A stretch of 64,000 bases of DNA. It comes from Candidatus Uhrbacteria bacterium RIFCSPHIGHO2_02_FULL_46_47 (GTDB lineage: Bacteria > Patescibacteriota > Patescibacteriia > GWA2-47-26). Made by a program: the position numbers and the translations under genes. The stretch is taken from positions 14,277 to 78,276 of the forward strand of contig MGDU01000020.1 of NCBI GenBank assembly GCA_001790815.1, written 5' to 3'. The notes below the pieces were generated by a model. The model was given only the letters and a program-made list of their open reading frames with translations. It was not told the DNA's origin and made no database searches. Of this stretch, positions 4,884 through 63,221 are shown piece by piece; position 1 is the stretch's first letter; each line of letters starts with the position of its first letter.

Positions 4884-5203
4884 AAAGTAATATTCGGCTC
4901 GCCGCTGTATTTCGCAGACATTTGCCGCTTATCATTCACTTTTATTCCAAGCCCCCAGGCCAGCGCATTTACGGTGGCGATTACTTGCCGCACTCCACTG
5001 AAGGTTGCCTCACGCATATTGACACTTATGCTTTGTATCGCGCGCCTCTTTAGAGCAACCTTAGATATTGCCCACAAAAGCGGTATTTTGTCAAGCCGTA
5101 CTCGCTTTGTGCGCTTACCAAACCGCACCTCCGCTTCTTTTCCAATCACTTCCACGCACAATTCATTCTGCATTCTGCATTTTACATTCTGCATTCTTTT
5201 CAT
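4880..5203 (-). CDS. Hypothetical small basic protein
   Basis: ORF of 107 aa. Its N-terminus is encoded by a CATTCTG tandem repeat at 5151-5183, and the start codon is uncertain. Confidence 0.3.
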   Translation of the reverse strand: MKRMQNVKCRMQNELCVEVIGKEAEVRFGKRTKRVRLDKIPLLWAISKVALKRRAIQSISVNMREATFSGVRQVIATVNALAWGLGIKVNDKRQMSAKYSGEPNITL

Positions 5204-10660: not shown

Positions 10661-11071
10661 TTACTTCAGGGTCGCCTTCGCTCCCGCCTCTTCCAATTTT
10701 TTCTTCATCGTCTCTGCTTCGGCTTTGCCAACCCCTTCTTTTACCATTTTTGGAGCGCCGTCAACCATGTCTTTGGCATCTTTCAAGCCAAGCTGGGTAA
10801 TCTCGCGTAGCACTTTAATCACGCCGATTTTATTTGAGCCAGATTCAGTAAGCTCCACATTAAACGTGGTTTGCTCTTCAACGGGCGCAGTGGCCGCGGA
10901 GGGAGCGCCAGCGACCGGAGCCCCGACGAATGTCTGGGCGGCTGAAACACCGAACTTGCCTTCCAATACTTTTACAAGCTCCGCAAGATCGGAAACTGTG
11001 AGTTTCTCAATCTGCTCTACAAGGCCCTTGAATTTCTCCGGGACTTCAACATTTTTTTGTTCATCTGCCAT
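10661..11071 (-). CDS. rplL: 50S ribosomal protein L7/L12
   Basis: [10 protein letters not shown]... with the [16 protein letters not shown] dimerisation region and a conserved C-terminal domain ending ...[10 protein letters not shown]. Confidence 0.95.
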
Positions 11072-11169
11072 ATTGATTATGATACGAATCTACAAATGAT
11101 TGGCGAATCTTCGAATATGCGAATTCGTATATTGGTAGATTCGTCATTAATTCGCTGATTCGTATCGTA

Positions 11170-11697
11170 TTACGATTTAGACTCTTTAATTGCATTTAAT
11201 ACCTGCACCAATCCGCGCAAATTTCCAGCCAGTACATTTACAAAACCAGAGATTGGTGCTTTTACCGTGCCAACAAGTTTTGCCAAAAGCTCGACCCGAC
11301 TTGGCAAACTTGCCAGCGCTTTAATTTGGTTTGTATCTACAAACTTTCCTTCAAAAAGGCCGCCCAAAATCTTGAACGCCTCAAATTCTTTAGCTGTGGT
11401 GGCTGCAAATTTCGCCGTAGTCACCTCATCGCTATATCCGGTTACAAGTCCAATATTGCCTTCAAGCTTTTTAGGATCAACAGTGCTTTCCAAGCCGGCA
11501 TTTTTCAACGCGAGTTTCAGAAGTGACTTTTTGATCACTTCATAATCCACCGCTTCAGCCCAAGATTTTTCCCGAATCTTTTGCGCATCCTTAACTTTGA
11601 GTCCCTTGTAATCAACAAGAACCGCTCCTTTCATTTTTTTGAACTTATCAGTCAAGTCCGCAACACTTTGTTCTTTTTGTGTACGTGTCTTTGGCAT
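11170..11697 (-). CDS. rplJ: 50S ribosomal protein L10
   Basis: MPKTRTQKEQSVADLTDKFKKMKGAVLVDYKGLKV... is a typical L10. It lies immediately upstream of rplL. Confidence 0.93.
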   Translation of the reverse strand: MPKTRTQKEQSVADLTDKFKKMKGAVLVDYKGLKVKDAQKIREKSWAEAVDYEVIKKSLLKLALKNAGLESTVDPKKLEGNIGLVTGYSDEVTTAKFAATTAKEFEAFKILGGLFEGKFVDTNQIKALASLPSRVELLAKLVGTVKAPISGFVNVLAGNLRGLVQVLNAIKESKS

Positions 11698-13814: not shown

Positions 13815-13856
13815 AATTGTTTGAGTAAATTAAGTAAATCAAGCAAGGCAAGTAAA

Positions 13857-14606
13857 TTAAGCAACCGATACCACTTGATTTACCTGATTTACTTGCGCAC
13901 TTGATTCACTCGTCTTCCCCTCTTCCTTCCCCTCCTGATACGCCTGCGCAATACATTTTACCACAAGTTCAATTGATTTTACAGCATCGTCATTGCCCGG
14001 AATTGGATATTGTACGCGCTCCGGGTTTGCATTGGTATCGCAAAGCGCGATTATCGGAATTTTTTTTTGATTGGCTTCGGCAAGCGCGGTTTCCTCATGC
14101 TTGATATCCACGATAAATAACGCATCCGGCAGTTTGGTCAAGGTGGAAATACCGTGCACAAGCTGGCTCATCCGTTCAATATCTTTTGAAAAATCAAGTT
14201 GTTCTTTTTTGGTATATTTTCCAAGCTCGCCGCGCTCCTGCTTGCCCTTAAGATCAAGATATTTTCTGATGAGCTTGTAAAGTTCGGCCCAATTAGTAAT
14301 TGTTCCGCCCAGCCAGCGATTTTCAACATAGGGCGCTCCGACTTCAGTTGCGTATTTTTTAATAAGCGGCGCGGCCTGCTTTTTGGTGCCCACAAACAAG
14401 AGCACCTTCCCCTCGCGACCCAGCGCCCTGACAAACTCGCAGGCGCGCGCAAGCTCCTCGCGCGTTTTTTCCAAATTAATAAGATGCACCCCGCCGCGCG
14501 CGCCAAAAATAAAAGGCGCCATTTTAGGGTGCCAACGTGATGTCTTATGGCCAAAGTGAACTCCGGCCTTAAGCAAATCCAATAATTCTGGGGTAGTGTT
14601 TGACAT
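13857..14606 (-). CDS. rpsB: 30S ribosomal protein S2
   Basis: ...LLKAGVHFGHKTSRWHPKMAPFIFGARGGVHLINLEKT... is the S2 signature. Confidence 0.95.
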   Translation of the reverse strand: MSNTTPELLDLLKAGVHFGHKTSRWHPKMAPFIFGARGGVHLINLEKTREELARACEFVRALGREGKVLLFVGTKKQAAPLIKKYATEVGAPYVENRWLGGTITNWAELYKLIRKYLDLKGKQERGELGKYTKKEQLDFSKDIERMSQLVHGISTLTKLPDALFIVDIKHEETALAEANQKKIPIIALCDTNANPERVQYPIPGNDDAVKSIELVVKCIAQAYQEGKEEGKTSESSAQVNQVNQVVSVA

Positions 14607-14788: not shown

Positions 14789-14826
14789 GTGTAAATTTTG
14801 AGTCTAAATTTGACTAAAACTTACAC
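14789..14826. repeat. Partial (terminal 37 nt) copy of the 147-bp foldback repeat unit
   Basis: Identical to 15976-16012 (TGTAAATTTTGAGTCTAAATTTGACTAAAACTTACAC). Confidence 0.85.
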
Positions 14827-15865: not shown

Positions 15866-16012
15866 TGTAAGTTTTAGTCAAAAATGTATGCATTTTTTAC
15901 AAAAAAATAGAATCGCTCATTGGCGAATATTCGCTAGAATAAGCAATCTTTGACAAGTTTGATATTCTATTTTTTTGTAAATTTTGAGTCTAAATTTGAC
16001 TAAAACTTACAC
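15866..16012. repeat. 147-bp quasi-palindromic foldback repeat unit (copy 1)
   Basis: Near-perfect reverse complement of 16639-16787. Termini are GTAAGTTTTAGTC...GACTAAAACTTAC, with the internal palindrome GCGAATATTCGC. Confidence 0.9.
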
Positions 16013-16022
16013 CTTTCGCTAT

Positions 16023-16613
16023 TCAGCATCGCAGCGCTTCCGTGTAGCGCGCATTCAAGAGGAGCGCGTCAATTTGCGAATCAATCAGTGGAATGAAACG
16101 GCGGTCAATGCGTACGAATTTACGGCAAGGAACCTCGAGAAAGTAAAGCTCGCCCGGCATCTCATCAGGAACCCTGAATCCGGAAAGTCCGCGTTCTGAT
16201 GTGAAGGGATTTCGGTAATCACGAAAGAGAACGTATTGGTTCTGCTCAATCCAGGCGTCCAGACTGCCGAACGGTTCATATGTAGCGGGCTCATGAAAGA
16301 AGAGAAGACTCAAATAGGTGTCGCTGTCTTTCATGGGTGATGGCGCGAGTACAATGAGAGAAATGCGTGTCTGATCTTGTGGGCGCGCGATTAGCCAGCC
16401 GGATGGTACGTCAAAGGCAATTGGACCTAGTTCGATCGACATTGCATCGATGGGGGTGACAGTCGGAGTCGGTCTATGACGGTGGCTTCCGAGTGCCCAC
16501 GCAGTGGGAAGCCCAATGAGGCTGACAAGCGCCAAAAAGGCTGCAACCACCCAGGGTCGCCCGCAAGTGTGTAAGCTGCTACTTGGCACCATATATTTCC
16601 AATTTACTCCCAT
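16023..16613 (-). CDS. Hypothetical secreted protein (signal peptide), GC-rich cassette
   Basis: N-terminal ...VVAAFLALVSLIGLPTAWA. Flanked on both sides by the 147-bp repeat units. Confidence 0.55.
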   Translation of the reverse strand: MGVNWKYMVPSSSLHTCGRPWVVAAFLALVSLIGLPTAWALGSHRHRPTPTVTPIDAMSIELGPIAFDVPSGWLIARPQDQTRISLIVLAPSPMKDSDTYLSLLFFHEPATYEPFGSLDAWIEQNQYVLFRDYRNPFTSERGLSGFRVPDEMPGELYFLEVPCRKFVRIDRRFIPLIDSQIDALLLNARYTEALRC

Positions 16614-16638: not shown

Positions 16639-16787
16639 TCTGTAAGTTTTAGTCAAATTTAGACTCAAAATTTACAAAAAAATAGAATATCAAACTTGTC
16701 AAAGATTGCTTATTCTAGCGAATATTCGCCAATGAGCGATTCTATTTTTTTGTAAAAAATGCATACATTTTCGACTCAAACTTACAG
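16639..16787. repeat. 147-bp foldback repeat unit (copy 2, inverted relative to copy 1)
   Basis: Reverse complement of 15866-16012 with only a few mismatches. Confidence 0.9.
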
Positions 16788-21977: not shown

Positions 21978-23063
21978 TCACACCCGCGCGCGAATTGATT
22001 GCACAATGCCAAGCAATAAAAAATTGGAAAGCATGGCTGAACCGCCTAAAGATACAAATGGCAAAGGCAAGCCCACAATTGGCAAAAGACCAACATTCAT
22101 TCCAATATTCAAAATCATTTGCATGGCCACCAAAATGGCAAATCCAGCGATGCAAAAAAGCGCGAATCCGTCGGTTGTTTTCCTGGAAAGAATCAAAAGC
22201 CGCCACATCATGACTGCGTAGCAGGCCAAAATCAACACCACAATAAAAAATCCCAATTGCTCGGCAAGCACGGCAAAAATAAAATCTGTTTGCGCTTCTG
22301 GCAAAAATCTAAGCTGTGATTGCGATCCCTCCCCCAGTCCGCGTCCCAAAATCCCGCCAGCGCCAACTGCAATTACGGATTGGCGGATATTGTAGCCGCG
22401 ACCGAATGGATCTGAAGCGGGATTAACAAAGCTTGAAACGCGCGCTTTTTGATAATCGTGCAGGAAAAAATTCCACCCAAGCACCAAAGTGACGGCCAGA
22501 AGCATTAATCCAAAAAAAACATAACGGCGCGGCACATTTGTTAAAAGCAGCATCCCGAGCGTTATGCCAAAAAGCGTAAGCGCTGATCCAAAATCCGGCT
22601 GCAAAAGCGTAGGCGCCACATACAATCCCGAAATAATTCCGAGATTTAATATAACCTTAAAATCAATTATGTGCGCTTTGAGCGACAGATATTTTGCCAG
22701 CACAACAATCAAAATTACTTTTGCAAGCTCAACCGGCTGAACGGTAAATGTACCGATTTGAAACCATCCGCGCGTGCCGCGAATAGTGGTTCCAAAAATT
22801 ACCACCGCCAGCAAAATTAGCGCTCCCGCAACATACAAAGTCTTCGAAAGTGAACGAAAGGCGCGATAATCAAAGTAACTTATAAAAAGCACCAGGACAA
22901 TTCCGCCTCCTACAAATGCAATCTGTTTTTGAAAATTGGCAAGCGTCCCGGGTGCTTGCGCCAAATCAACGCTCCAAATTCCAAGAATGCCAAGACCTGA
23001 AAGTATGAGCGTGCACAAAAAAAGGATCCAATCGATCCTCCTAAATATCATCATTAACCGCAT
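21978..23063 (-). CDS. FtsW/RodA/SpoVE (SEDS) family peptidoglycan glycosyltransferase
   Basis: ~10 TM helices and the conserved ...SDPFGRGYNIRQSVIAVGAGGILGRGLGEGSQ...LPEAQTDFIFAVLAEQLGF block. Confidence 0.88.
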   Translation of the reverse strand: MRLMMIFRRIDWILFLCTLILSGLGILGIWSVDLAQAPGTLANFQKQIAFVGGGIVLVLFISYFDYRAFRSLSKTLYVAGALILLAVVIFGTTIRGTRGWFQIGTFTVQPVELAKVILIVVLAKYLSLKAHIIDFKVILNLGIISGLYVAPTLLQPDFGSALTLFGITLGMLLLTNVPRRYVFFGLMLLAVTLVLGWNFFLHDYQKARVSSFVNPASDPFGRGYNIRQSVIAVGAGGILGRGLGEGSQSQLRFLPEAQTDFIFAVLAEQLGFFIVVLILACYAVMMWRLLILSRKTTDGFALFCIAGFAILVAMQMILNIGMNVGLLPIVGLPLPFVSLGGSAMLSNFLLLGIVQSIRARV

Positions 23064-23163
23064 AGCTGTGATGCAAATCTACAAATCTTATGCACATTTA
23101 CGAATTGCGAATAAATTCATTTGTATTTGTAGATTGGCATGAAATTCGTATATTGGCATCATA

Positions 23164-26246: not shown

Positions 26247-26327
26247 AAAATTACAACACACAATGCGCGGGGGCTTGCCTGCCCCGCACCGAGCTTTGCT
26301 CTGGTGCGTTGGGTCCCCCGTTAAAAA

Positions 26328-26365
26328 TTATGTCAACTGTGAGCGATCGTTTATATTTGACATAA
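26328..26365. promoter_or_regulatory. Conserved 38-nt palindromic motif TTATGTCAA-N20-TTGACATAA (copy 1 of 4)
   Basis: Identical core at 53858-53895 and 63147-63184, and a diverged copy at 41245-41288. All copies lie next to GC-rich islands. Confidence 0.6.
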
Positions 26366-26366
26366 T

Positions 26367-26882
26367 TTATTTTCCGTGTCGTAATACATATAAGGCCACA
26401 CCGGCGGCGACGGAAACATTGAGAGATTCTTTTTGGCCAAGCATGGGGATTTCAACTACAGCATCTACGCGTTTGAGCACGCCGTCTGATACGCCATTGA
26501 CTTCATTGCCAACCACAAGAGCAAGTGGAAATTTGGGATGCCAACTATCAATTGTAGCCGCAGGCTTTAGCCTGCGTTCTTGTCTTGGTGCGCCGGCTAA
26601 AGACCGGCGACTACGATCGAGCATATTATTTTCCAATGCCACCACATATATGCCTTGCGCTTTTAACTCTTCCACAACTTTCCAAGTCTGTCCCCTTTTT
26701 TCCCATGGCACTGTTTTTTCCGCACCTAACGCAACTTTACTAATTTCTTTTCGCGGCGGCGCTCCTGTATAGCCGCAAAGATAGATTTTTTTTACGCCAA
26801 ACGCGTCCGCAGTACGAAAAAGTGACCCAACATTATAAAGACTGCGAACACGATCTACAATAAGATATACTTCCCTGTGCAT
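26367..26882 (-). CDS. SpoU/TrmH-family RNA 2'-O-methyltransferase
   Basis: ...LIVDRVRSLYNVGSLFRTADAFGVKKIYLCGYTG... is the SPOUT fold. It contains an in-frame family-D hairpin pair (26554-26614). Confidence 0.8.
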   Translation of the reverse strand: MHREVYLIVDRVRSLYNVGSLFRTADAFGVKKIYLCGYTGAPPRKEISKVALGAEKTVPWEKRGQTWKVVEELKAQGIYVVALENNMLDRSRRSLAGAPRQERRLKPAATIDSWHPKFPLALVVGNEVNGVSDGVLKRVDAVVEIPMLGQKESLNVSVAAGVALYVLRHGK

Positions 26883-27051
26883 AGTACCCTAGCTTGACAC
26901 AAAAGTGACTATATTGTAAAGTAATTAACTGGCCCTGGGACGGGGCTTTTTTAGGACAACACGATGCCAATATACGAATTTCATGCCAATCTACAAATAC
27001 GAATTCGCAATTCGTAGATTAGCATAAGATTTGTAGATTTGCATCACAATT

Positions 27052-27237
27052 ATGCCGAAATTGCTGAATTACTTCAAAGAATCAAAGCAGGAAATGAAAA
27101 AAGTGGTCTGGCCTTCCAAAAAGGAAACCACCAATTATACCTTGGCCGTTATCTTTATCAGCTTGGGTCTGGCCGCGTTTTTCGCCATTGTGGATTACTT
27201 CCTCAATCTTGGTTTGGAAAAACTTATTAATAAGTAG
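27052..27237 (+). CDS. secE: Preprotein translocase subunit SecE
   Basis: 61 aa with a single C-terminal TM. It lies directly upstream of nusG, the conserved secE-nusG-rplKA order. Confidence 0.8.
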   Translation: MPKLLNYFKESKQEMKKVVWPSKKETTNYTLAVIFISLGLAAFFAIVDYFLNLGLEKLINK

Positions 27238-27978: not shown

Positions 27979-28401
27979 ATGGCAAAGAAAGTAAAGACAG
28001 TCATTAAACTCCAAATTCCCGCAGGCAAGGCAAACCCCGCGCCTCCGGTTGGTCCAGCACTTGGTCAACATGGTCTTAACATTTCCGAGTTTTGCCAAAA
28101 ATTCAACGCCGCGACATCAAAGCTGGGCGATGATATTATTCCGGTTGAAATTACGGTTTTTGAAGACCGCACCTATACTTTCAAAACCAAAACTCCACCG
28201 GCATCTGAACTTTTGAAAAAAGCCGCCGGCATTACAAAAGGTTCTGGCAAGGCGCTTGTTGAAAAAGTCGGCAAAGTAACACGCGCGCAAATTCGCGAGA
28301 TTGCGGAGCGTAAACTTCCGGACTTAAATACTAAAGATGTTGAAGCCGCGATGCGCACCATTGAAGGCACCGCGAAACAGATGGGACTGGAAGTAGTATG
28401 A
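27979..28401 (+). CDS. rplK: 50S ribosomal protein L11
   Basis: [35 protein letters not shown]... is the L11 signature. Confidence 0.95.
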
Positions 28402-28504
28402 TACGAATCACCGAATATCTGACGAATCTGCGAATATACGAATTCGTTGATTCGCATATTTGTTGATTCGCCTAAAATTTGTAGATTCGTATCACATATA
28501 TTAT

Positions 28505-29182
28505 ATGCCAGGAAAAAAATATCAGGAAGCAGTAAAGTTAGTGGATGCCAAAAAATTATATTCGCCGAGCGAGGCGCTTGAGCTTGCCAAAAAAACTTCA
28601 ACTGTAAAATTTGACGCCTCAATTGAGGTGCATTGCCATCTTGGAATTGATCCGGCAAAAAGCGACCAAGCTGTGCGCGCAACACTGACTTTTCCGCATG
28701 GAACCGGGAAAAGTAAGCGCATTGCCGCGTTTGTAGATGCGGCAAACGAAAAAGCAGCAGAAGAAGCCGGCGCGGATATTGTGGGAGGCGATCGGCTTAT
28801 CGATGAGATCGCGTCCTCTGGGAAAATTGATTTTGACGTGGCAATCGCAACACCGCCTATAATGGCGAAACTTGCAAAGGTTGCAAAAGTGCTTGGGCCT
28901 AAGGGACTGATGCCAAACCCAAAATCAGAAACCGTTACTACAGATGTGAAAAAAACTATTGCGGAGCTTAAACGCGGCAAAGTAACTTTCAAAAATGACG
29001 ATACTGGAAATGTGCACCAAGTTCTTGGCAAAGTTTCTTTTGATACCCAAAAACTTCTTGAAAATTTCCAGACACTTCTGGAAGCTTTGCGAAAAGCAAA
29101 ACCATCTTCTTCAAAAGGAATATATCTTCAATCTTGCACAATAAGCGCATCCATGGGCCCGGCGATTAAAGTTTCCATTTAA
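28505..29182 (+). CDS. rplA: 50S ribosomal protein L1
   Basis: MPGKKYQEAVKLVD...GKSKRIAAF... The start was trimmed to the ATG at 28505, in frame with track ORF 28460. Confidence 0.92.
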   Translation: MPGKKYQEAVKLVDAKKLYSPSEALELAKKTSTVKFDASIEVHCHLGIDPAKSDQAVRATLTFPHGTGKSKRIAAFVDAANEKAAEEAGADIVGGDRLIDEIASSGKIDFDVAIATPPIMAKLAKVAKVLGPKGLMPNPKSETVTTDVKKTIAELKRGKVTFKNDDTGNVHQVLGKVSFDTQKLLENFQTLLEALRKAKPSSSKGIYLQSCTISASMGPAIKVSI

Positions 29183-30674: not shown

Positions 30675-31001
30675 CTATTCCGTCGGTTTACTCTTCTTTT
30701 TTAATTGCTCTTCTCTTATTTTTTCTCTCAACTCCCCTGTTGCCATCTGCCCTAAAAGCGTCTTAGGTCTTGCTGGAGCCTCGCCTTTTTTATAAACACC
30801 ATGATTGCGCAAATCTTCTTCCGTTAACCCACCTTGCTTGCTTAACAACTTTCTCAACTCTAGCAAACCAAACATGGAGGATTTAGGCCTGCCCCATTCA
30901 TAGTCACCCTCTTCTGCTCCAATTTTACTTAGTTGTTCCTCACTTATAATTACAAAATCAGGTTGATGTTCTCTCATTTCGCTCATAGAAAAATTTTTCA
31001 A
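30675..31001 (-). CDS. Hypothetical small protein, paralogous promoter class A
   Basis: 108 aa. Its upstream region shares a DnaA-box/TTGCAAT/SSR promoter module with the gene at 54058..54423. Confidence 0.45.
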   Translation of the reverse strand: MKNFSMSEMREHQPDFVIISEEQLSKIGAEEGDYEWGRPKSSMFGLLELRKLLSKQGGLTEEDLRNHGVYKKGEAPARPKTLLGQMATGELREKIREEQLKKKSKPTE

Positions 31002-31171
31002 AAATTAATCCTACTAAAATCCTACTATATATATATATATGGATTGCAAGGGGGGGTGTGGATAACATAATAAACAGGGCGCAAACAAACCGCACGTACT
31101 TTGCGTTTGCGTCTTTAAACAAAAATCAAGCCCAGCCGGGCTTGCCTTTACAAAAAGCTTGCTAACTACTT

Positions 31172-31471
31172 TTAGAGAAACAATTGCGGGAATGGCTCTA
31201 GAGAAAGAATGCGTTTTATATCCGGATCGGTTAGCACTTTCTTTTCGCGCAAAATTTCAACCAGTGTCCGCAATTTTACATCTTCTTTGCGCACAGTCAA
31301 AATAATATCTCCTTTTGTATTAAATAGTTTTTTATCCATATCATCTTGGGTTGGTATGGTAGTTAAAGTAGCATTAATCTTTACAAACTGCTGGTCTACT
31401 TTGGTTGCAAACTCATTCATGGCTTCAAGAATCTCAGCATTCGTTGGTTCTCCATTTATATTAGCAGACAT
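31172..31471 (-). CDS. Hypothetical protein
   Basis: 99 aa. Followed by a terminator hairpin (31105-31125, CAAGCCCGGCTGGGCTTG on the minus strand) and a T-run. Confidence 0.45.
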   Translation of the reverse strand: MSANINGEPTNAEILEAMNEFATKVDQQFVKINATLTTIPTQDDMDKKLFNTKGDIILTVRKEDVKLRTLVEILREKKVLTDPDIKRILSLEPFPQLFL

Positions 31472-32645: not shown

Positions 32646-33347
32646 CTAGAGCTTTTGTAATTTATATACAACATCCTTTCTTTCCACCACAATTTCCCAT
32701 CCTTTTTTCTTGGCCACTTGGTACAAGCCGCTTGAAGGATTAAAAGCAATTGGCCGATCAACTATTTCAAACATTGAAATATCGCTTTCTGTATCCCCGA
32801 CCGCGATTGACCCGCGCAAGGTAACATTGTATTTTTCCAGCACATGCTTGATAAGCAAATGTTTGTTCCGCACGGAATAGATGTATTTCATATTTCCTGT
32901 ATAGCGGCCGCTTTTGTCAGTTTCAAGAACCCAGCCGTAGGTCTTATCAAATCGCAGGAAACGATTGTACCAACGCACAATTTCAAATGGCGATCCGGAT
33001 ATGGCCACAATAAAGTAATTCTTTTTCTTTAGCTCTAAAATAAGATCGCGCGTAAAGCGATACACATGCGACTTTTCACTGGATACAATTTTACGACTAA
33101 TGCGCCGTATATCGCTTTGCTTTTTCCCTCTGATATGCGCGATAAATACTTTTACTAATTTTTCAAGATACACATCATATGATCCTTTGCGATTAAGCCA
33201 GGCGCGCAAATACGGATCCACTTCTTCCCGTGCGCCTTTTGAAAAAATTCCTTCATTCACTAAATAGGAAAAAAGCCGGCGGGTTAAACTGCTTCTAAAA
33301 ATCGTTCCATCCACATCAAACACCGCTAATTTCCGCAATTTCTGCAT
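32646..33347 (-). CDS. HAD-superfamily hydrolase (HAD-IB-like)
   Basis: LAVFDVDGTI is HAD motif I. C-terminal ...GDTESDISMF is motif IV. Confidence 0.6.
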   Translation of the reverse strand: MQKLRKLAVFDVDGTIFRSSLTRRLFSYLVNEGIFSKGAREEVDPYLRAWLNRKGSYDVYLEKLVKVFIAHIRGKKQSDIRRISRKIVSSEKSHVYRFTRDLILELKKKNYFIVAISGSPFEIVRWYNRFLRFDKTYGWVLETDKSGRYTGNMKYIYSVRNKHLLIKHVLEKYNVTLRGSIAVGDTESDISMFEIVDRPIAFNPSSGLYQVAKKKGWEIVVERKDVVYKLQKL

Positions 33348-33465
33348 AGATGTGATGCAAATCTACAAATCTTATGCTAATTTACAAATTGCGAATTTGT
33401 ATTTGTAGATTTGAATGACATTTGTATATTGGCATTGTAGCACAGTTATGATATAGTCCCCTAAT

Positions 33466-35545: not shown

Positions 35546-36157
35546 ATGATATCTATTATTGCCGCGGTTGCAAAAAATGGAGTAATCGGTGCGAAAAATG
35601 ATTTGCCCTGGTATTTGCCCGAAGACTTGAAGCATTTTAAAGAGCTCACTACAGGTAAAACAGTGCTGATGGGGCGCAAAACTTTTGAATCAATTCTGAA
35701 ACGTTTAGGCAAACCCTTGCCCAATCGCAAAAATGTGGTGGTCACGCGGGATCGAAATTATACCCTCTCACCCCCTCCTCAATCCTCCCCCATCAAGGGG
35801 GAGGAAGAAAAAGGAAAAAATCCTCTCCCACAAGGGGAGAGGAAGAACCAAAAAATTCCCTCTCCCTTAATGGGAGAGGGTGCTCCGACCGCAGTCGGAG
35901 CGGGTGAGGGTGTATGTGTACACCACTCGGTTGACGAAGCGCTTGAGCACCACAGTGCCGAAGAAATTATGGTTGCCGGCGGAGGCGAGATATTTAGGCA
36001 AACAATGGACAAAGCAGATACGCTTTATGTTACTGAAGTCGACAAAATTGTAGAAGGCGATGTTTATTTTCCAACGATTGATCCAAAGATCTGGAAAGAA
36101 GTTACCCGCGAACCACATGATGGTTTTTCATTTGTCACCTATATTCGCAATTCGTAG
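35546..36157 (+). CDS. folA: Dihydrofolate reductase carrying a ~55-aa in-frame repeat-element insertion
   Basis: MISIIAAVAKNGVIGAKNDLPWYLPEDLKHFKELTTGKTVLMGRKTFESI is canonical DHFR. The insertion TLSPPPQSSPIKGEEEKGKNPLPQGERKNQKIPSPLMGEGAPTAVGAGEGV is encoded by 35762-35928. Confidence 0.88.
   Translation: MISIIAAVAKNGVIGAKNDLPWYLPEDLKHFKELTTGKTVLMGRKTFESILKRLGKPLPNRKNVVVTRDRNYTLSPPPQSSPIKGEEEKGKNPLPQGERKNQKIPSPLMGEGAPTAVGAGEGVCVHHSVDEALEHHSAEEIMVAGGGEIFRQTMDKADTLYVTEVDKIVEGDVYFPTIDPKIWKEVTREPHDGFSFVTYIRNS
35762..35928. repeat. Composite nested palindromic element (outer CCCTCACCC...GGGTGAGGG; inner family-B core CCCCCTCCTCAATCCTCCCCCATCAAGGGGGAGG; CCCTCTCCC..GGGAGAGGG; GCTCCGACCGCAGTCGGAGC)
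   Basis: Four nested hairpins, GC-rich relative to the flanking folA sequence. Confidence 0.85.
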
Positions 36158-36177
36158 ATTGGCATGAAATTTGTAGA

Positions 36178-36879
36178 TTGGCATCACATATGAAAGGAAC
36201 TTTCATCGTTATTGAAGGCACAGACGGCTCTGGAAAAACAACCCATCTTGAACTGGCTGTAAAAAAACTCACTGCCGACAGCCGTGCAGTTGAAGTTGTG
36301 GATTTTCCACAATACGGCAAAAAAAGTGCTGGCCCGGTTGAAGAATACTTAAATGGGAAATATGGCAGCGCTCAAGAAGTGTCCCCTTATGTGGCTTCAC
36401 TTTTCTATGCAGTTGATCGTTTTGATGCCTCCTTCAAAATCAATAAAGCGCTTACTGATGGAAAAATCGTGCTGGCCAATCGCTATGTTCCGTCTAACAT
36501 CGCGCATCAAGGCGCAAAAATTACGGACATTGCTGAGCGGCAAAAATTCATGCATTGGGTAGAGGAGATAGAGTACGGCATTATGAAACTCCCCAGACCA
36601 GATCGCGTGATTTTCCTGCATGTACCAGCTCATATAAGCTTCGAGCTTGTCGAGAAGAAAAACGAACGCGCCTATTTGCAAGAAGGGAAAAAACGTGATA
36701 TCCATGAATCAGATCTTTTATACCAAAAAGCAGTGGAGCAAAGCTATCTTGAGCTTGCCGCGCATGATACTACTGTAAAGACGATAGAGTGCGCGCCGGA
36801 AGGAAAACTCCTTTACATTGAAGAAATTCATCCTTTAGTCATGAAACAAATTTATGATCTCTTTCAGCAATCTGCTTAA
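36178..36879 (+). CDS. tmk: Thymidylate kinase
   Basis: GTFIVIEGTDGSGKTT is the dTMP kinase P-loop, and the LID region is present. Confidence 0.9.
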   Translation: MASHMKGTFIVIEGTDGSGKTTHLELAVKKLTADSRAVEVVDFPQYGKKSAGPVEEYLNGKYGSAQEVSPYVASLFYAVDRFDASFKINKALTDGKIVLANRYVPSNIAHQGAKITDIAERQKFMHWVEEIEYGIMKLPRPDRVIFLHVPAHISFELVEKKNERAYLQEGKKRDIHESDLLYQKAVEQSYLELAAHDTTVKTIECAPEGKLLYIEEIHPLVMKQIYDLFQQSA

Positions 36880-39970: not shown

Positions 39971-40222
39971 ATTCCACTACATTATCACACAGTACAACAA
40001 AAAGAAAGCCCCTTGCAGGGCTTCCTCTGGGATTCGTGATCCCAAGAAACAGAATCGTCTCATCAGCATTATTAGAATATCACAGGTACAACATACTGTC
40101 AAGCGCGAGCTTATCCACAAACCGGAGATGGATCGTAGAGGATTTTAACCCCTCTGGAATCGCTGATGAAACGTTTCTGGTCCCTAGACCACGACCCCCA
40201 AACCTCCGGCTTCGCCAGTATA

Positions 40223-42652: not shown

Positions 42653-42680
42653 TTGACACCATCATCTGTAGGCGTACAAT
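42653..42680 (+). promoter_or_regulatory. Strong sigma70-like promoter (TTGACA-16-TACAAT)
   Basis: Near-consensus hexamers. Drives a ~140-nt unit that ends at the terminator 42806-42837. Confidence 0.55.
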
Positions 42681-42805
42681 GAAAATGAGGACAGGTGAAC
42701 GAGGGGGAGTTCTGTGGATAACACGTATTGTGAAAAGTACATGTTTATTCGGAGAAGCTGACCCTCTGTATCACACCCCCTCTCCTGCCCGACCAAATGC
42801 ATAAT

Positions 42806-42837
42806 AAAAACCCGCCTTTTGGGCGGGATTTTCTATT
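42806..42837. terminator. Bidirectional rho-independent terminator (CCCGCC-TTTT-GGGCGGG plus a T-run)
   Basis: Also lies just 3' of the minus-strand gene 42843..44720. Confidence 0.65.
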
Positions 42838-44720: not shown

Positions 44721-44729
44721 TTATCCACA

Positions 44730-53280: not shown

Positions 53281-53396
53281 ATTGATGAGTACGTAGTATG
53301 TAGTAGGTAGTGCGTAGTCATTGAATTCGAGCGTAACACCTACGTACTACTTACTACCTTCTACCTACTGACATGATGCATCCTATCACAGCACTC

Positions 53397-53734: not shown

Positions 53735-53857
53735 AATTCTCAAATTTCCTCCGGCCGCTACAAATCTGACACGAAACATAGTGCGCAGATTTTCTGCGCC
53801 CGCAGAATTTTGACTCACTAATTTTCTTACATATCAGGCGAGATACGTCTTTTAAAA

Positions 53858-53895
53858 TTATGTCAACTGTGAGCGATCGTTTATATTTGACATAA
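53858..53895. promoter_or_regulatory. Conserved 38-nt palindromic motif (copy 2)
   Basis: Identical to 26328-26365 over the full 38 nt. Confidence 0.6.
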
Positions 53896-54057
53896 TTCCA
53901 TTTTGCCGTGTACTACTGATCCTGCGGCAGATTCATTACGATCGTGGTATTCTTACCGCAAAATAACAGCACGATGAGATGTAAAAAATACAAAAGATCG
54001 CGGAGACTTTGCCCCGCGACCTAATTTTTCGAAAGTTAGGTTCACTCTAGAAAAAAG

Positions 54058-54423
54058 CTAATGCATTCCTTCAATAATATCAATTTCTGGTTTCTCTTTC
54101 ACATTTTTTTGGCTCATGTTTTTATATGCGGCCGCTTCTGCCATCTGTCTTGCTACATTGCTCTCCTTAATGCGCTTTGAGCCGATTCCCATTGCGGCCA
54201 AAAATTCTAACAATGGTTCTTGTGCCTCTGGCTTATTTGCTAAATCAAGATTAAGCAATTTATCAACAGTTTCTGTGCCAAGTTGTCCAAGAAAGTAATC
54301 AGCCTTTTCAGGTGATTTACCAGTATCTAAACCACTTACTCTCAGTCGAGATTCCTGTGCTTTTTCTGGAGCTTTCCCTGTTTCTGCGCCCGGTGGTCGA
54401 TATTTCCCTTCACCTTCTGGCAT
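54058..54423 (-). CDS. Hypothetical small protein, paralogous promoter class A
   Basis: 121 aa. Its upstream module is homologous to that of 30675..31001 but is interrupted by a MITE. Confidence 0.45.
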   Translation of the reverse strand: MPEGEGKYRPPGAETGKAPEKAQESRLRVSGLDTGKSPEKADYFLGQLGTETVDKLLNLDLANKPEAQEPLLEFLAAMGIGSKRIKESNVARQMAEAAAYKNMSQKNVKEKPEIDIIEGMH

Positions 54424-54483
54424 AAAATGTTTTCCTAAAAATTATTTCCTTACTAAAATCCTACTCTCTCTCTGGATTGCAAG

Positions 54484-54621
54484 CCCAGTAGTAGAAGTTC
54501 AACTTTGTGCGCGTCAAGCGCGCATTATGAAAATCATTTGTTTGACACCACTTTCCCTTTAAAATAAGGCATTTTAGGGCATGCGAATATAGTTATTTGC
54601 CTGTTGAACTTTCACTACTGG
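54484..54621. mobile_element. 138-bp MITE-like insertion with ~19-bp terminal inverted repeats and a 5-bp target-site duplication (GCAAG)
   Basis: TIRs are CCCAGTAGTAGAAGTTCAAC ... GTTGAACTTTCACTACTGG. The uninterrupted paralogous site at 31041-31060 (GGATTGCAAG|GGGGGGTG) shows the empty target. Confidence 0.7.
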
Positions 54622-54900
54622 GCAAGGGGGGATGTGGATAACTTGGATGCCATTGCTTGACAAAAATGCGTAATATGGTATGCTGAATATGGTTATCAAT
54701 CCATGAGCCACACTCCTATCCGGAGTCAAAAAACAGTCCCGCATTTGCGGGATTGTTTTTCATATTCACAATTTTTGCTATACTTAAGAGTGCACGGAGT
54801 GGCTAGGAGGGTATTGCTATACAGTTTTATAGCCATGGATTGATAACCCATTGACCCCGAAAGGGGTGTGGTGCAACTCCACTGCCCTCCGTGTAAAAAT

Positions 54901-54938
54901 CCCCCCGATGTCCATCGGGGGGATTTTTATTTTCCAAA
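54901..54938. terminator. Bidirectional rho-independent terminator (TCCCCCCGATG-TC-CATCGGGGGGA)
   Basis: 11-bp GC-rich stem flanked by A5 and T-rich runs. Lies 3' of gene 54944..55300. Confidence 0.7.
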
Positions 54939-61963: not shown

Positions 61964-62007
61964 TAATAATCATAATTCATACTTCATAATTCATAATTCT
62001 CTCAAAT

Positions 62008-62927: not shown

Positions 62928-63146
62928 TCAACGCCTTGCCTTAGGGGCCTGTTGTAGAAAATCAAAAACCGCCTAGAAGGGCGGATTTTTCTTTTGACAA
63001 AATTCAGTGCGGCCGCATCGTATTTTGTCATTTGATTTTGGGTCAGATTTCTCACGCCTGCCCGCCGAGTATGCTGGTGTCACAGAGCCGAATGGCCGCA
63101 CGGTGAAATGAGAGGCGGGATCGTGAGGTTTTTGACCCACTAACAT

Positions 63147-63184
63147 TTATGTCAACTGTGAGCGATCGTTTATAATTGACATAA
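63147..63184. promoter_or_regulatory. Conserved 38-nt palindromic motif (copy 3)
   Basis: TTATGTCAACTGTGAGCGATCGTTTATAATTGACATAA; one mismatch to copies 1 and 2. Confidence 0.6.
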
Positions 63185-63221
63185 TTTATTTTTCTGTTTT
63201 TTTACGATTTGGGCATCTGAA

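What the first reader, a model, noticed from the sequence alone, without database searches (positions are those of the whole stretch)
31021..31070. Paralogous promoters with a perfect DnaA-box-like motif and a dinucleotide microsatellite in the spacer, which are candidates for phase variation
Upstream of gene 30675..31001 the coding strand reads GTTATCCACA-CCCCCCC-TTGCAATCCA-(TA)7-GTAGGATTTTAGTAGG...ATG. Upstream of gene 54058..54423 the homologous module reads GTTATCCACA-TCCCCCC-TTGC|MITE|..AATCCA-(GA)5-GTAGGATTTTAGTAAGG...ATG. A simple-sequence repeat lying between a -35-like TTGCAA and the downstream -10 region is the classic architecture of slipped-strand phase-variable promoters. A third GGGGG..TGTGGATAAC motif lies at 42703-42722. 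TTATCCACA is a 9/9 match to the DnaA box.
Basis: partly seen in the sequence, partly recalled or inferred. Interest (0 to 1): 0.7.

Follow-up and report, generated by a model that had tools for sequence, protein, structure and literature searches.

The report
Repeat-tuned promoter cassette with DnaA-like box
Two unrelated small genes of an uncultured groundwater bacterium (Candidatus Uhrbacteria) carry copies of one promoter in which a two-letter DNA stutter forms most of the gap between the two RNA-polymerase contact sites; this is the classic layout of a slippage-controlled on/off switch, but actual switching has not been shown.

Summary
The sequence observation holds. The window is a chromosome piece of Candidatus Uhrbacteria RIFCSPLOWO2_01_FULL_47_24. 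Two regions share, in the same order, GTTATCCACA, a C-tract, TTGCAA, a dinucleotide repeat, TAGGAT and a leader. The second copy is split by a 139-bp MITE with terminal inverted repeats and a CTTG target duplication.

The strongest evidence comes from outside the window. The gene-2 protein has ten distant homologues. Three of them, plus an orthologue of gene 1, have readable upstream DNA with the same layout:
- a box (TTATCCACA or TTTTCCACA) lies 7-11 bp upstream of a -35 hexamer (TTGCAA or TTGACT);
- an (AG)n or (AT)n tract fills the spacer;
- a -10 hexamer (TAGGAT or TACTAT) follows.

Spacers are 13, 15, 15, 17, 17 and 19 bp.

Three points are not supported or not shown:
- The two genes are not paralogues; only the promoters are.
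- Ten assemblies of locus 1 and eight of locus 2 from the window's own lineage show one repeat length each.
- DnaA binding is only inferred, and each module has a single box.

This is a new member of a known kind: a spacer-repeat promoter like Haemophilus hif. I found no report of one in Patescibacteria.

The parts
31057..31066 (-). Module 1: DnaA-box-like 10-mer GTTATCCACA, containing the exact TTATCCACA. Its promoter-proximal end is 7 bp upstream of the -35 hexamer.
   Evidence: conserved in all six alleles
31050..31056 (-). Module 1: C7 linker between the box and the -35 hexamer. It reads C8TCC in the related lineage.
31044..31049 (-). Module 1: -35 hexamer TTGCAA.
   Evidence: It lines up with TTGACT/TTGCAA in homologous promoters that have a 17-bp spacer to TACTAT.
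31025..31043 (-). Module 1: 19-bp spacer TCC(AT)7AG. The repeat itself is 31027-31040.
   Evidence: the relative has (AT)5 and a 15-bp spacer
31019..31024 (-). Module 1: -10 hexamer TAGGAT. It is the first unit of the 11-bp tandem AGTAGGATT.
   Evidence: It lines up with TACTAT of the homologues. TAGGAT is also the -10 of the best dnaE promoter candidate, TTGCCC-17-TAGGAT.
30987..31018 (-). Module 1: 32-nt leader, homologous to the module 2 leader, with no clear Shine-Dalgarno sequence.
30675..30986 (-). Gene 1: 103-aa protein with no known family. Its only relatives are 90-100% identical.
   Evidence: (13 synonymous and 10 non-synonymous codon differences from the relative)
54633..54642 (-). 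Module 2: DnaA-box-like 10-mer GTTATCCACA, now displaced 139 bp upstream of the promoter by the MITE.
54626..54632 (-). Module 2: linker TCCCCCC. Its last C plus the TTG at 54623-54625 form the upstream copy of the CTTG target-site duplication.
54484..54622 (.). 139-bp MITE-like insertion with terminal inverted repeats CCCAGTAGTGAAAGTTCAAC / GTTGAACTTCTACTACTGGG. It is flanked by the duplication CTTG (54623-54626 and 54480-54483).
   Evidence: absent from module 1 and from all homologous promoters
54477..54482 (-). Module 2: -35 hexamer TTGCAA. It was regenerated by the target-site duplication.
54464..54476 (-). Module 2: 13-bp spacer TCC(AG)5. The repeat itself is 54464-54473.
54458..54463 (-). 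Module 2: -10 hexamer TAGGAT.
54424..54457 (-). Module 2: 34-nt leader.
54058..54423 (-). Gene 2: 121-aa protein. It belongs to a very small family (11 clusters at 50% identity among 1.84 billion representatives) with the conserved helical core LDLANKPEAQ..LL.FL.AMG.
42713..42722 (-). Third GTTATCCACA, followed 5 nt later by C5. It is not a cassette copy. It lies at about +26 to +35 of a + strand unit with promoter TTGACA-16-TACAAT (42653-42680) and terminator (42811-42827).
40111..40119 (+). Exact TTATCCACA in inverted orientation, 8 bp upstream of the -35 of the - strand promoter TTGACA-17-TATTCT (40102..40074).
44721..44729 (+). Exact TTATCCACA that fills the 9-bp gap between thrS and the next - strand gene.

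Best explanation
Each module is a self-contained sigma-70-type promoter plus leader with four elements.
- A box, TT(A/T)TCCACA, lies 7-11 bp upstream of the -35 hexamer. It is a binding site for a regulator, most likely DnaA.
- A C-rich linker follows the box.
- The -35 hexamer is TTGCAA or TTGACT.
- The spacer to the -10 hexamer (TAGGAT or TACTAT) is 3 bp plus a dinucleotide repeat.

Strand slippage adds or removes 2 bp at a time. This moves the spacer around the 17-bp optimum and so sets promoter strength. Both window copies are currently off-optimum. Copy 1 has a 19-bp spacer, and one unit fewer would give 17. Copy 2 has a 13-bp spacer and has also lost its proximal box to a MITE that landed in the -35 hexamer.

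The cassette belongs natively to the small gene-2 family, which carries it in four different genomic contexts. Copy 1 is a duplicate of the promoter and leader placed in front of an unrelated lineage-specific gene. That gene-plus-promoter tract has recently moved between lineages.

Shown: the anatomy, homology, conservation, between-lineage length changes and the MITE. Inferred: the transcription start, dependence of expression on repeat number, high-frequency reversible switching, and the identity of the box-binding protein.

The confidence of 0.6 applies to the promoter anatomy with a repeat-set spacer. True high-frequency phase variation alone I put at about 0.3.
For: **Same order of elements in six alleles.**

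| Allele | Spacer (bp) |
|---|---|
| Module 1, window | 19 |
| Module 1 orthologue, L012 | 15 |
| Module 2, window | 13 |
| P0009, L026 | 15 |
| P0012, L028 | 17 |
| P0015, L029 | 17 |

- In P0015 the promoter is the canonical TTGACT-17-TACTAT, ending 8 nt before the ATG.
- All repeat-bearing spacers equal 3 + 2n bp, so they interconvert by unit slippage.

**The organism uses canonical promoters.** TTGACA-16/17-TATAAT promoters occur elsewhere in the window, including a 12-of-12 match. Spacers of 13, 15 and 19 bp are therefore off-optimal for it.

**The repeat persists while the flanks diverge.** The gene-2 proteins are only 33-49% identical in the full alignment. The repeats are the two longest non-CG dinucleotide runs in the window.

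**The box looks functional.**
- Exact matches: 5 against 0.39 expected, and 5 of 5 intergenic.
- It is conserved in all six alleles, with only an A/T change at position 3.
- Another exact box sits 8 bp upstream of a canonical -35 at 40111.

**The genes are unrelated.** The upstream genes are also unrelated.

**The gene-1 tract has a separate history.** It is 92% identical to the relative, against 71% for the adjacent dUTPase gene.
Against: - No repeat-length difference appears among 10 independent assemblies of locus 1 or 8 of locus 2 from the window's lineage. These are consensus sequences only.
- The tracts are short. (AG)5 is below the dinucleotide cut-offs of 6 or 8 units that PMC5953494 gives in its table footnote and its methods. 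(AT)7 passes only the lower one.
- Four of six alleles have non-optimal spacers. This fits decaying promoters of dispensable genes as well as it fits OFF phases.
- Between the window and its relative, the -4 bp change in the AT tract is exactly offset by +4 bp in the C-tract, so the distance from box to -10 is 32 bp in both. That points to a constraint on box-to-core distance rather than free switching.
- There is no transcription-start or expression data.
- Each module has a single box with no partner box 2-3 bp away. In E. coli only 13 of 32 consensus single boxes are bound in vivo.
Confidence: 0.6

Rival explanations
1. The cassette is a real promoter, but the repeats are neutral low-complexity filler. 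On this view the length differences between lineages are slow drift, or decay of weakly selected promoters of dispensable accessory genes. There is no high-frequency reversible switching.
For: - Repeat numbers are identical in every assembly of one lineage.
- The tracts are short compared with the cut-offs used for phase-variable dinucleotide repeats.
- Copy 2 has also been hit by a MITE in its -35 hexamer, as expected for a locus under weak selection.
- One family member (P0015) has only (AG)3 and a fixed 17-bp spacer.
Against: - An uninterrupted repeat is kept at the same position in five of six alleles even though the flanks have diverged strongly.
- All lengths fall on the 3 + 2n series centred on 17 bp.
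- The two longest non-CG dinucleotide runs in 64 kb both sit at this position.
- Neutral tracts of 5-7 units would be expected to become interrupted by point mutations.
Confidence: 0.3
2. The conserved box is the operator of some regulator other than DnaA. The C-tract may be part of that site, and the resemblance to the DnaA box may be coincidental.
For: - A C-rich run follows the box in five of six alleles, and follows the third window site 5 nt later. DnaA is not known to need this.
- No second box lies 2-3 bp away, unlike most sites bound in vivo in E. coli.
- The exact-box density, 5 per 64 kb, is about ten times that of E. coli, which has 32 per genome.
Against: - Four of the six boxes are exact TTATCCACA, a 9-of-9 match to the consensus.
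- The only variation among the six boxes is A/T at position 3, the position that the textbook consensus TTWTNCACA leaves degenerate (the consensus is from my own knowledge).
- DnaA is known to act as a transcription factor from boxes near promoters (PMC8203912).
Confidence: 0.35
3. The functional unit is something other than a -35/-10 promoter. Three versions were considered: an RNA or DNA hairpin CUUGC-AAUCC[repeat]GGAUU-GUAGG; a pair of GTAGGATT direct repeats bound by a response-regulator-type activator; or a + strand promoter TTGCAA-16-CATAAT with the box in its spacer.
For: - The hairpin can be drawn in module 1, its relative and module 2, with two wobble-compatible changes.
- AGTAGGATT is repeated at an 11-bp period.
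- The scan tool flags the + strand site 31044-31071.
Against: - The hairpin energy is no better than that of shuffled sequence (z about +1).
- Neither AATCC/GGATT nor the GTAGGATT repeats exist in the homologous promoters of P0009, P0012 or P0015.
- The + strand spacer becomes 20 bp in the close relative, and module 2 has no -10 there.
- No Rfam family matches.
Confidence: 0.05

Closest known systems
Haemophilus influenzae hifA/hifB fimbrial promoter, with (TA)n in the -35/-10 spacer (van Ham et al. 1993, Cell 73:1187; listed in the reference list of PMC11868660; mechanistic details from my own knowledge)
   Same: A dinucleotide repeat, here (AT)n or (AG)n, forms the -35/-10 spacer. Each unit changes the spacing by 2 bp around the optimum. 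Related strains or loci carry different unit numbers.
   Different: - The tracts here are shorter: 5-7 units, against about 9-11 from memory.
- This is a single promoter, not a divergent overlapping pair.
- No switching has been demonstrated.
- The host is an uncultured environmental CPR bacterium, not a host-adapted pathogen.
- The downstream genes are small cytoplasmic-looking proteins, not surface structures.
- A conserved DnaA-like box lies upstream.
Homopolymer-tract promoters: Bordetella pertussis fim genes (C-stretch between the activator site and -10) and Neisseria meningitidis porA/opc (poly-G/C in the spacer). From my own knowledge.
   Same: A C7-C8 tract lies between the putative regulator box and the core promoter. 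Its length differs between lineages (C7 against C8TCC), which changes the box-to-promoter distance.
   Different: - The tract is shorter than in those systems; PMC5953494 uses a cut-off of 9 or more for poly-G/C.
- It lies upstream of the -35 hexamer, not in the spacer.
- Its change is compensated by the AT-tract change.
DnaA-regulated promoters such as dnaA and nrdAB in E. coli (PMC8203912, PMC11317965)
   Same: An exact consensus box lies next to a promoter. The box is intergenic, enriched and conserved.
   Different: - The box is single rather than a pair spaced 2-3 bp apart.
- The downstream genes are tiny accessory proteins of unknown function, not replication or nucleotide-metabolism genes.
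- Binding has not been tested.
Putative mobile promoters (Matus-Garcia et al. 2012, PMC3488235)
   Same: Homologous upstream regions stand in front of non-homologous downstream genes, and the upstream genes are also non-homologous.
   Different: The identity, 78% over 82 nt after removing the MITE and 83% over 42 nt in the native sequence, falls just short of that paper's threshold of at least 80% over at least 50 nt.

Membership tests
Repeat-mediated phase-variable promoter (spacer type) | The simple-sequence repeat lies between the -35 and -10 hexamers. | tested here: met
   Six alleles line up as TTGCAA/TTGACT - 3 bp + repeat - TAGGAT/TACTAT. Two of them have exactly 17 bp.
Repeat-mediated phase-variable promoter (spacer type) | The tract is long enough to be hypermutable. 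| tested here: inconclusive
   (AT)7 and the (AG)7 of a homologue pass the cut-off of at least 6 units but not the cut-off of at least 8. The window's (AG)5 passes neither. Both cut-offs are from PMC5953494.
Repeat-mediated phase-variable promoter (spacer type) | Repeat number differs between related strains or homologous loci. | tested here: met
   (AT)7 against (AT)5 at locus 1. (AG)5, 6, 7 and 3 in the gene-2 family.
Repeat-mediated phase-variable promoter (spacer type) | Repeat lengths are mixed (n-1, n, n+1) within one population. | tested here: inconclusive
   10 assemblies of locus 1 and 8 of locus 2 are identical. Consensus assemblies cannot show minority variants, and reads were not available.
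Repeat-mediated phase-variable promoter (spacer type) | Expression switches reversibly with repeat number. | not testable with these tools
   This needs reporter fusions or transcript data.
DnaA box / DnaA-regulated promoter | The 9-mer matches TTATCCACA (TTWTNCACA). | tested here: met
   The match is 9 of 9 in both modules. The homologues carry TTATCCACA or TTTTCCACA.
DnaA box / DnaA-regulated promoter | The motif is non-random: enriched, intergenic and conserved. | tested here: met
   5 matches against 0.39 expected. 5 of 5 are intergenic where 10.6% of the window is intergenic. The box is conserved in six alleles.
DnaA box / DnaA-regulated promoter | Boxes come in pairs spaced 2-3 bp apart, the in vivo preference in E. 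coli. | tested here: not met
   By eye, the 9-mers 2-3 bp from the module 1 box match at most 3 of 9 positions (sequence). The rule is from PMC11317965.
DnaA box / DnaA-regulated promoter | DnaA protein binds the site and changes transcription. | not testable with these tools
   This needs gel-shift, footprinting or ChIP.
Putative mobile promoter (PMC3488235) | At least 50 nt at 80% identity or more upstream of the start codons. | tested here: not met
   78.0% over 82 nt with the MITE excised; 83.3% over 42 nt in the native sequence. Homology is clear (E = 6e-14) but below the formal threshold.
Putative mobile promoter (PMC3488235) | The downstream and upstream coding sequences are not homologous. 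| tested here: met
   Downstream genes: BLASTP E > 1 and hhalign probability 0.2%. Upstream genes: no alignment.
MITE | Short non-coding element with terminal inverted repeats and a target-site duplication, absent from the homologous site. | tested here: met
   139 bp, 19-of-21 terminal inverted repeats, CTTG duplication. It is absent from module 1 and from the homologues.
MITE | Multiple copies in the genome. | tested here: inconclusive
   There is one copy in about 84 kb of this genome, the window plus 10-kb flanks. The rest of the genome could not be searched.

The most novel reading that the evidence does not exclude
The cassette is a true contingency locus in an ultra-small CPR bacterium. 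On this reading it is a portable promoter that combines a replication-status input (DnaA bound at the box) with a slippage-set -35/-10 spacer. Small accessory proteins would then be switched on stochastically in part of the population. The cassette would also spread, both to new genes within a genome and between lineages. It would be the first phase-variable system described in Patescibacteria.
Probability: 0.2. Interest if true: 0.75.

Novelty: new member of a known kind. Interest (0 to 1): 0.55.

Why it matters
Repeat-driven promoter switching is known almost only from host-adapted pathogens. CPR/Patescibacteria are uncultured and have minimal regulatory repertoires. A full-text search for 'phase variation' with 'Patescibacteria' found only one paper, which mentions each term once and is about archaeal methylation.

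A conserved cassette with a box, a -35 hexamer, a repeat and a -10 hexamer gives a concrete hypothesis that existing Rifle groundwater read sets could test cheaply. It is also a ready-made promoter model for a phylum with no genetics, and a candidate DnaA regulon member. In addition, it documents promoter duplication onto an unrelated gene and a MITE landing inside a -35 hexamer.

If the repeats turn out to be stable, the finding reduces to an ordinary duplicated promoter.

Tried and rejected
- **Collection scans.** Scans of genome contigs and metagenome contigs with TTGCAATCCAN{0,30}GTAGGATTTTAG gave only four chance hits. Neither collection returned the source genome, so the cassette could not be counted genome-wide.
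- **Viral collection.** The upstream half of the module had no match, and no gene-2 relative was found. Nothing links the cassette to phage.
- **Paralogy of the two genes.** Rejected by BLASTP and profile-profile comparison.
- **Protein function.** There were no Pfam, PHROG or PADLOC hits. The AlphaFold model of gene 2 has a confident helical core at residues 41-109, with block-mean pLDDT 71-90. It has no Foldseek match in the PDB.
- **RNA families.** Nothing was found at either module.
- **Other readings of the sequence.** The hairpin, the GTAGGATT direct repeats and the + strand TTGCAA-16-CATAAT promoter were all rejected, because none is conserved in the homologous promoters.
- **Sigma-54 reading of CCACAC-N5-TTGCA.** Rejected by eye, because there is no GG at -24.
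- **Repeat heterogeneity.** I compared 10 and 8 independent assemblies of the two loci and found none.
- **The 10-kb flanks on each side of the window.** They hold no further cassette or MITE, only one more exact box.

Full report
**Source.** The window matches NCBI contig MGEO01000006.1 of GCA_001791415.1, named Candidatus Uhrbacteria bacterium RIFCSPLOWO2_01_FULL_47_24. This is a candidate-phyla-radiation (CPR) genome from the Rifle aquifer. The gene content is ordinary chromosome: pheT, dnaE, thrS, gatB, miaA, dUTPase and ribosomal proteins. Rfam found nothing at gathering thresholds.

**The observation.** On the - strand, module 1 reads as follows.

| Element | Module 1 coordinates |
|---|---|
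| GTTATCCACA | 31066-31057 |
| C7 | 31056-31050 |
| TTGCAA | 31049-31044 |
| TCC(AT)7AG | 31043-31025 |
| TAGGAT | 31024-31019 |
| 32-nt leader, then ATG | ATG at 30986 |

Module 2 reads as follows.

| Element | Module 2 coordinates |
|---|---|
| GTTATCCACA | 54642-54633 |
| TCCCCCC | 54632-54626 |
| TTG | 54625-54623 |
| 139-bp insert | 54622-54484 |
| C, then TTGCAA | TTGCAA at 54482-54477 |
| TCC(AG)5 | 54476-54464 |
| TAGGAT | 54463-54458 |
| 34-nt leader, then ATG | ATG at 54423 |

The insert has 19-of-21 terminal inverted repeats and a CTTG duplication, and it folds as one hairpin. Excising it restores the module 1 sequence at 26 of 27 positions.

The shared blocks are far beyond chance. 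BLASTN of the two upstream regions gives E = 6e-14. The (AT)7 and (AG)5 tracts are the two longest non-CG dinucleotide runs in the window, and neither is expected by chance. Exact TTATCCACA occurs five times against 0.39 expected. All five lie in the 10.6% of the window that is intergenic, whereas 17 of the 19 one-mismatch variants lie in coding sequence.

**What the genes are.** The two downstream proteins are unrelated to each other, and so are the two upstream genes. Only the promoters are paralogous.

Gene 1 (103 aa) has no family. Its one diverged orthologue, P0003, is 90% identical at the protein level. The two differ at 13 synonymous and 10 non-synonymous codons, so the gene looks coding.

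Gene 2 appeared to have no relatives in the word-indexed search. A full HMMER scan of 1.84 billion representatives then found ten distant relatives at 41-60% identity over the matched stretches. They share the motif DYF.EQLG.ET..KLL.LDLANKPEAQ..LL.FL.AMG. The AlphaFold model has a helical core at residues 41-109 with pLDDT of about 88-90 for residues 51-100. It has no match in the PDB. Pfam, PHROG and PADLOC gave nothing.

**The decisive comparison.** Upstream DNA could be fetched for three gene-2 relatives and for the gene-1 orthologue. Parsed with one pattern, the six alleles are:

| Allele | Box | Linker | -35 | Spacer (bp) | -10 |
|---|---|---|---|---|---|
| Module 1, window | GTTATCCACA | C7 | TTGCAA | TCC(AT)7AG (19) | TAGGAT |
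| Module 1 orthologue, L012/L013 | GTTATCCACA | C8TCC | TTGCAA | TTC(AT)5AG (15) | TAGGAT |
| Module 2, window | GTTATCCACA | TC6 | TTGCAA | TCC(AG)5 (13) | TAGGAT |
| P0009, L026/L027 | GTTTTCCACA | C6TC | TTGACT | TTA(AG)6 (15) | TACTAT |
| P0012, L028 | GTTTTCCACA | C4TCC | TTGCAA | TCA(AG)7 (17) | TACTAT |
| P0015, L029-L032 | CTTATCCACA | ATCTTGCCGT | TTGACT | TTGATGATACA(AG)3 (17) | TACTAT |

In P0015 the -10 hexamer ends 8 nt before the ATG.

This organism uses textbook TTGACA-16/17-TATAAT promoters, often ending 8-12 nt before the start codon. TAGGAT is also the -10 of the best dnaE promoter candidate. I therefore read TTGCAA/TTGACT as the -35 hexamer and TAGGAT/TACTAT as the -10 hexamer, with the repeat as the spacer.

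Every repeat-bearing spacer is 3 + 2n bp. The observed values of n (5, 6, 6, 7, 8) straddle the optimum of 7.

**The box.** The 9-mer is invariant in the six alleles except for A/T at position 3, which is the degenerate position of the textbook DnaA-box consensus TTWTNCACA (my own knowledge). It always lies 7-11 bp upstream of the -35 hexamer. A further exact box sits 8 bp upstream of the canonical - strand promoter at 40102-40074, in inverted orientation. DnaA is known to act as an activator or repressor from boxes near promoters (PMC8203912).

There are three caveats.
- In E. coli, DnaA binds mostly to pairs of boxes 2-3 bp apart, and only 13 of 32 consensus single boxes are occupied (PMC11317965). 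I see no partner box here.
- A C-rich run follows the box in five of six alleles and near the third window site. The true ligand could therefore recognise a longer site.
- Binding is untested.

**Phase variation.** Three things favour it: the geometry, the persistence of an uninterrupted repeat through strong flank divergence, and unit-number differences at both loci.

Four things count against it or leave it open.
- Ten independent assemblies of locus 1 all read C7 and (AT)7 (L006, L007, L018-L024 and the window). Eight of locus 2 all read (AG)5 plus the MITE (L001-L005, L014, L015 and the window).
- The tracts are at or below the dinucleotide cut-offs of 6 or 8 units given in PMC5953494.
- Four of six alleles are off-optimum, which fits decay as well as OFF phases.
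- Between the window and its relative, the loss of two AT units (-4 bp) is exactly offset by +4 bp in the C-tract. The distance from box to -10 is 32 bp in both. This hints at a constraint on box-to-core distance that I cannot explain. It does not hold across the family, where the distance ranges from 26 to 33 bp.

Reads, transcription starts and expression could not be examined.

**History.** The gene-2 family carries the cassette in four unrelated genomic contexts, one of them next to an IS110 transposase. The cassette therefore travels with that gene.

Module 1 resembles the window's own module 2 through the -10 hexamer and leader (TAGGATTTTAGTA...) far more than the other family promoters do. 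It is therefore a duplicate of module 2 placed before an unrelated gene. This fits the 'mobile promoter' idea (PMC3488235), although identity is just under that paper's threshold.

The tract from the 3' end of the upstream gene through gene 1 is 92% identical to the relative, or higher. The adjacent dUTPase gene is 71% identical and the upstream gene 81%. The gene-2 relative found in the same two samples as the gene-1 orthologue (P0009) is about 50% identical in protein (53%, 47%). I infer recent exchange of the gene-1 cassette between lineages.

**Alternatives rejected.** A hairpin with the repeat in its loop, GTAGGATT direct repeats as an activator site, and a + strand promoter using the palindromic TTGCAA all fail. 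None is conserved in the homologous promoters or in the close relative.

The third site at 42703-42722 is a lone box inside a short + strand unit. That unit has a near-perfect promoter (42653-42680) and a terminator (42811-42827).

**Verdict.** The promoter anatomy is well supported by comparative data, gene paralogy is refuted, and DnaA binding and true phase variation remain inferences. This is a new member of a known kind, the spacer-repeat promoter of Haemophilus hif type, in a phylum where I found no report of such a system.

Noticed in passing
window 11055-11173, 23044-23163, 26961-27068, 28393-28519, 33328-33439, 36142-36189: A repeat family made of two units TTYGTAGATTGGCAT about 19-22 bp apart. 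It ends in GCATCACA a few nt before the start codons of housekeeping genes: ribosomal L1 and L12/L10, thyA, a likely thymidylate kinase (assigned by eye from its GTDGSGKTT motif) and a HAD hydrolase. It looks like a lineage-specific strong promoter (-10 TAGATT) for mRNAs with very short leaders.
   Followed up: partly
window 54657-54930 (+ strand): Two short + strand units lie just upstream of module 2, each with its own promoter-like and terminator-like site.
- The second contains ARAGORN's 86-nt 'tRNA-Ile(gat)' at 54806-54891. The Rfam tRNA model does not match it.
- Its 'anticodon arm', CATGGATTGATAACC (about 54836-54850), is perfectly complementary to about 54692-54706 in the first unit. 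This could be a tRNA-like RNA with an antisense partner.
   Followed up: partly
window 42653-42830 (+ strand): A putative small RNA of about 140 nt. It has promoter TTGACA-16-TACAAT (11 of 12 matches) and an intrinsic terminator at 42811-42827, in a convergent intergenic region. It contains the third TGTGGATAAC box at about +26 to +35.
   Followed up: partly
window 15866-16011 and 16641-16786: 146-nt inverted repeats, 99% complementary, flank a 629-nt segment that holds a 196-aa gene with no known family (16023-16613, - strand). This could be an invertible or mobile segment. Related 37-48-nt copies lie at 14790-14826 and 15976-16012.
   Followed up: no
window 26317-26373, 53847-53903, 63136-63192: Three copies, 88-100% identical, of a 57-nt element built around the palindrome ATTATGTCAA...TTGACATAAT. 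Its function is unknown.
   Followed up: no
window 53288-53369, 61966-61999, 13824-13910, 5164-5197: Tandem repeats of 7-9-bp units lie in or near intergenic regions next to gene starts. In the dnaE leader, AGTACGT x4.4 and CTACCTA x4.3 form a long inverted repeat downstream of a TTGCCC-17-TAGGAT promoter candidate.
   Followed up: no
window about 30675-31260, compared with L012: Gene 1, its promoter and the end of the upstream gene are 92% identical to a related lineage, or higher. In that lineage the adjacent dUTPase gene is only 71% identical. This looks like a recent recombination or transfer tract.
   Followed up: partly
gene 1 3' end (window about 30680-30720); protein P0006: One public read-derived variant of gene 1 (P0006, 115 aa, SRR3989338) has a different C-terminus. 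By eye it fits a deletion of about 22 nt between short AAGAG direct repeats, so some population-level length variation exists inside the gene.
   Followed up: no
L029-L032 (P0015 locus), L028, L026: Gene-2 family members sit in unrelated neighbourhoods: next to an IS110-family transposase, next to an AAA_14/DUF4143 ATPase, and next to a GIY-YIG protein. This suggests an accessory, mobile small-gene family.
   Followed up: partly
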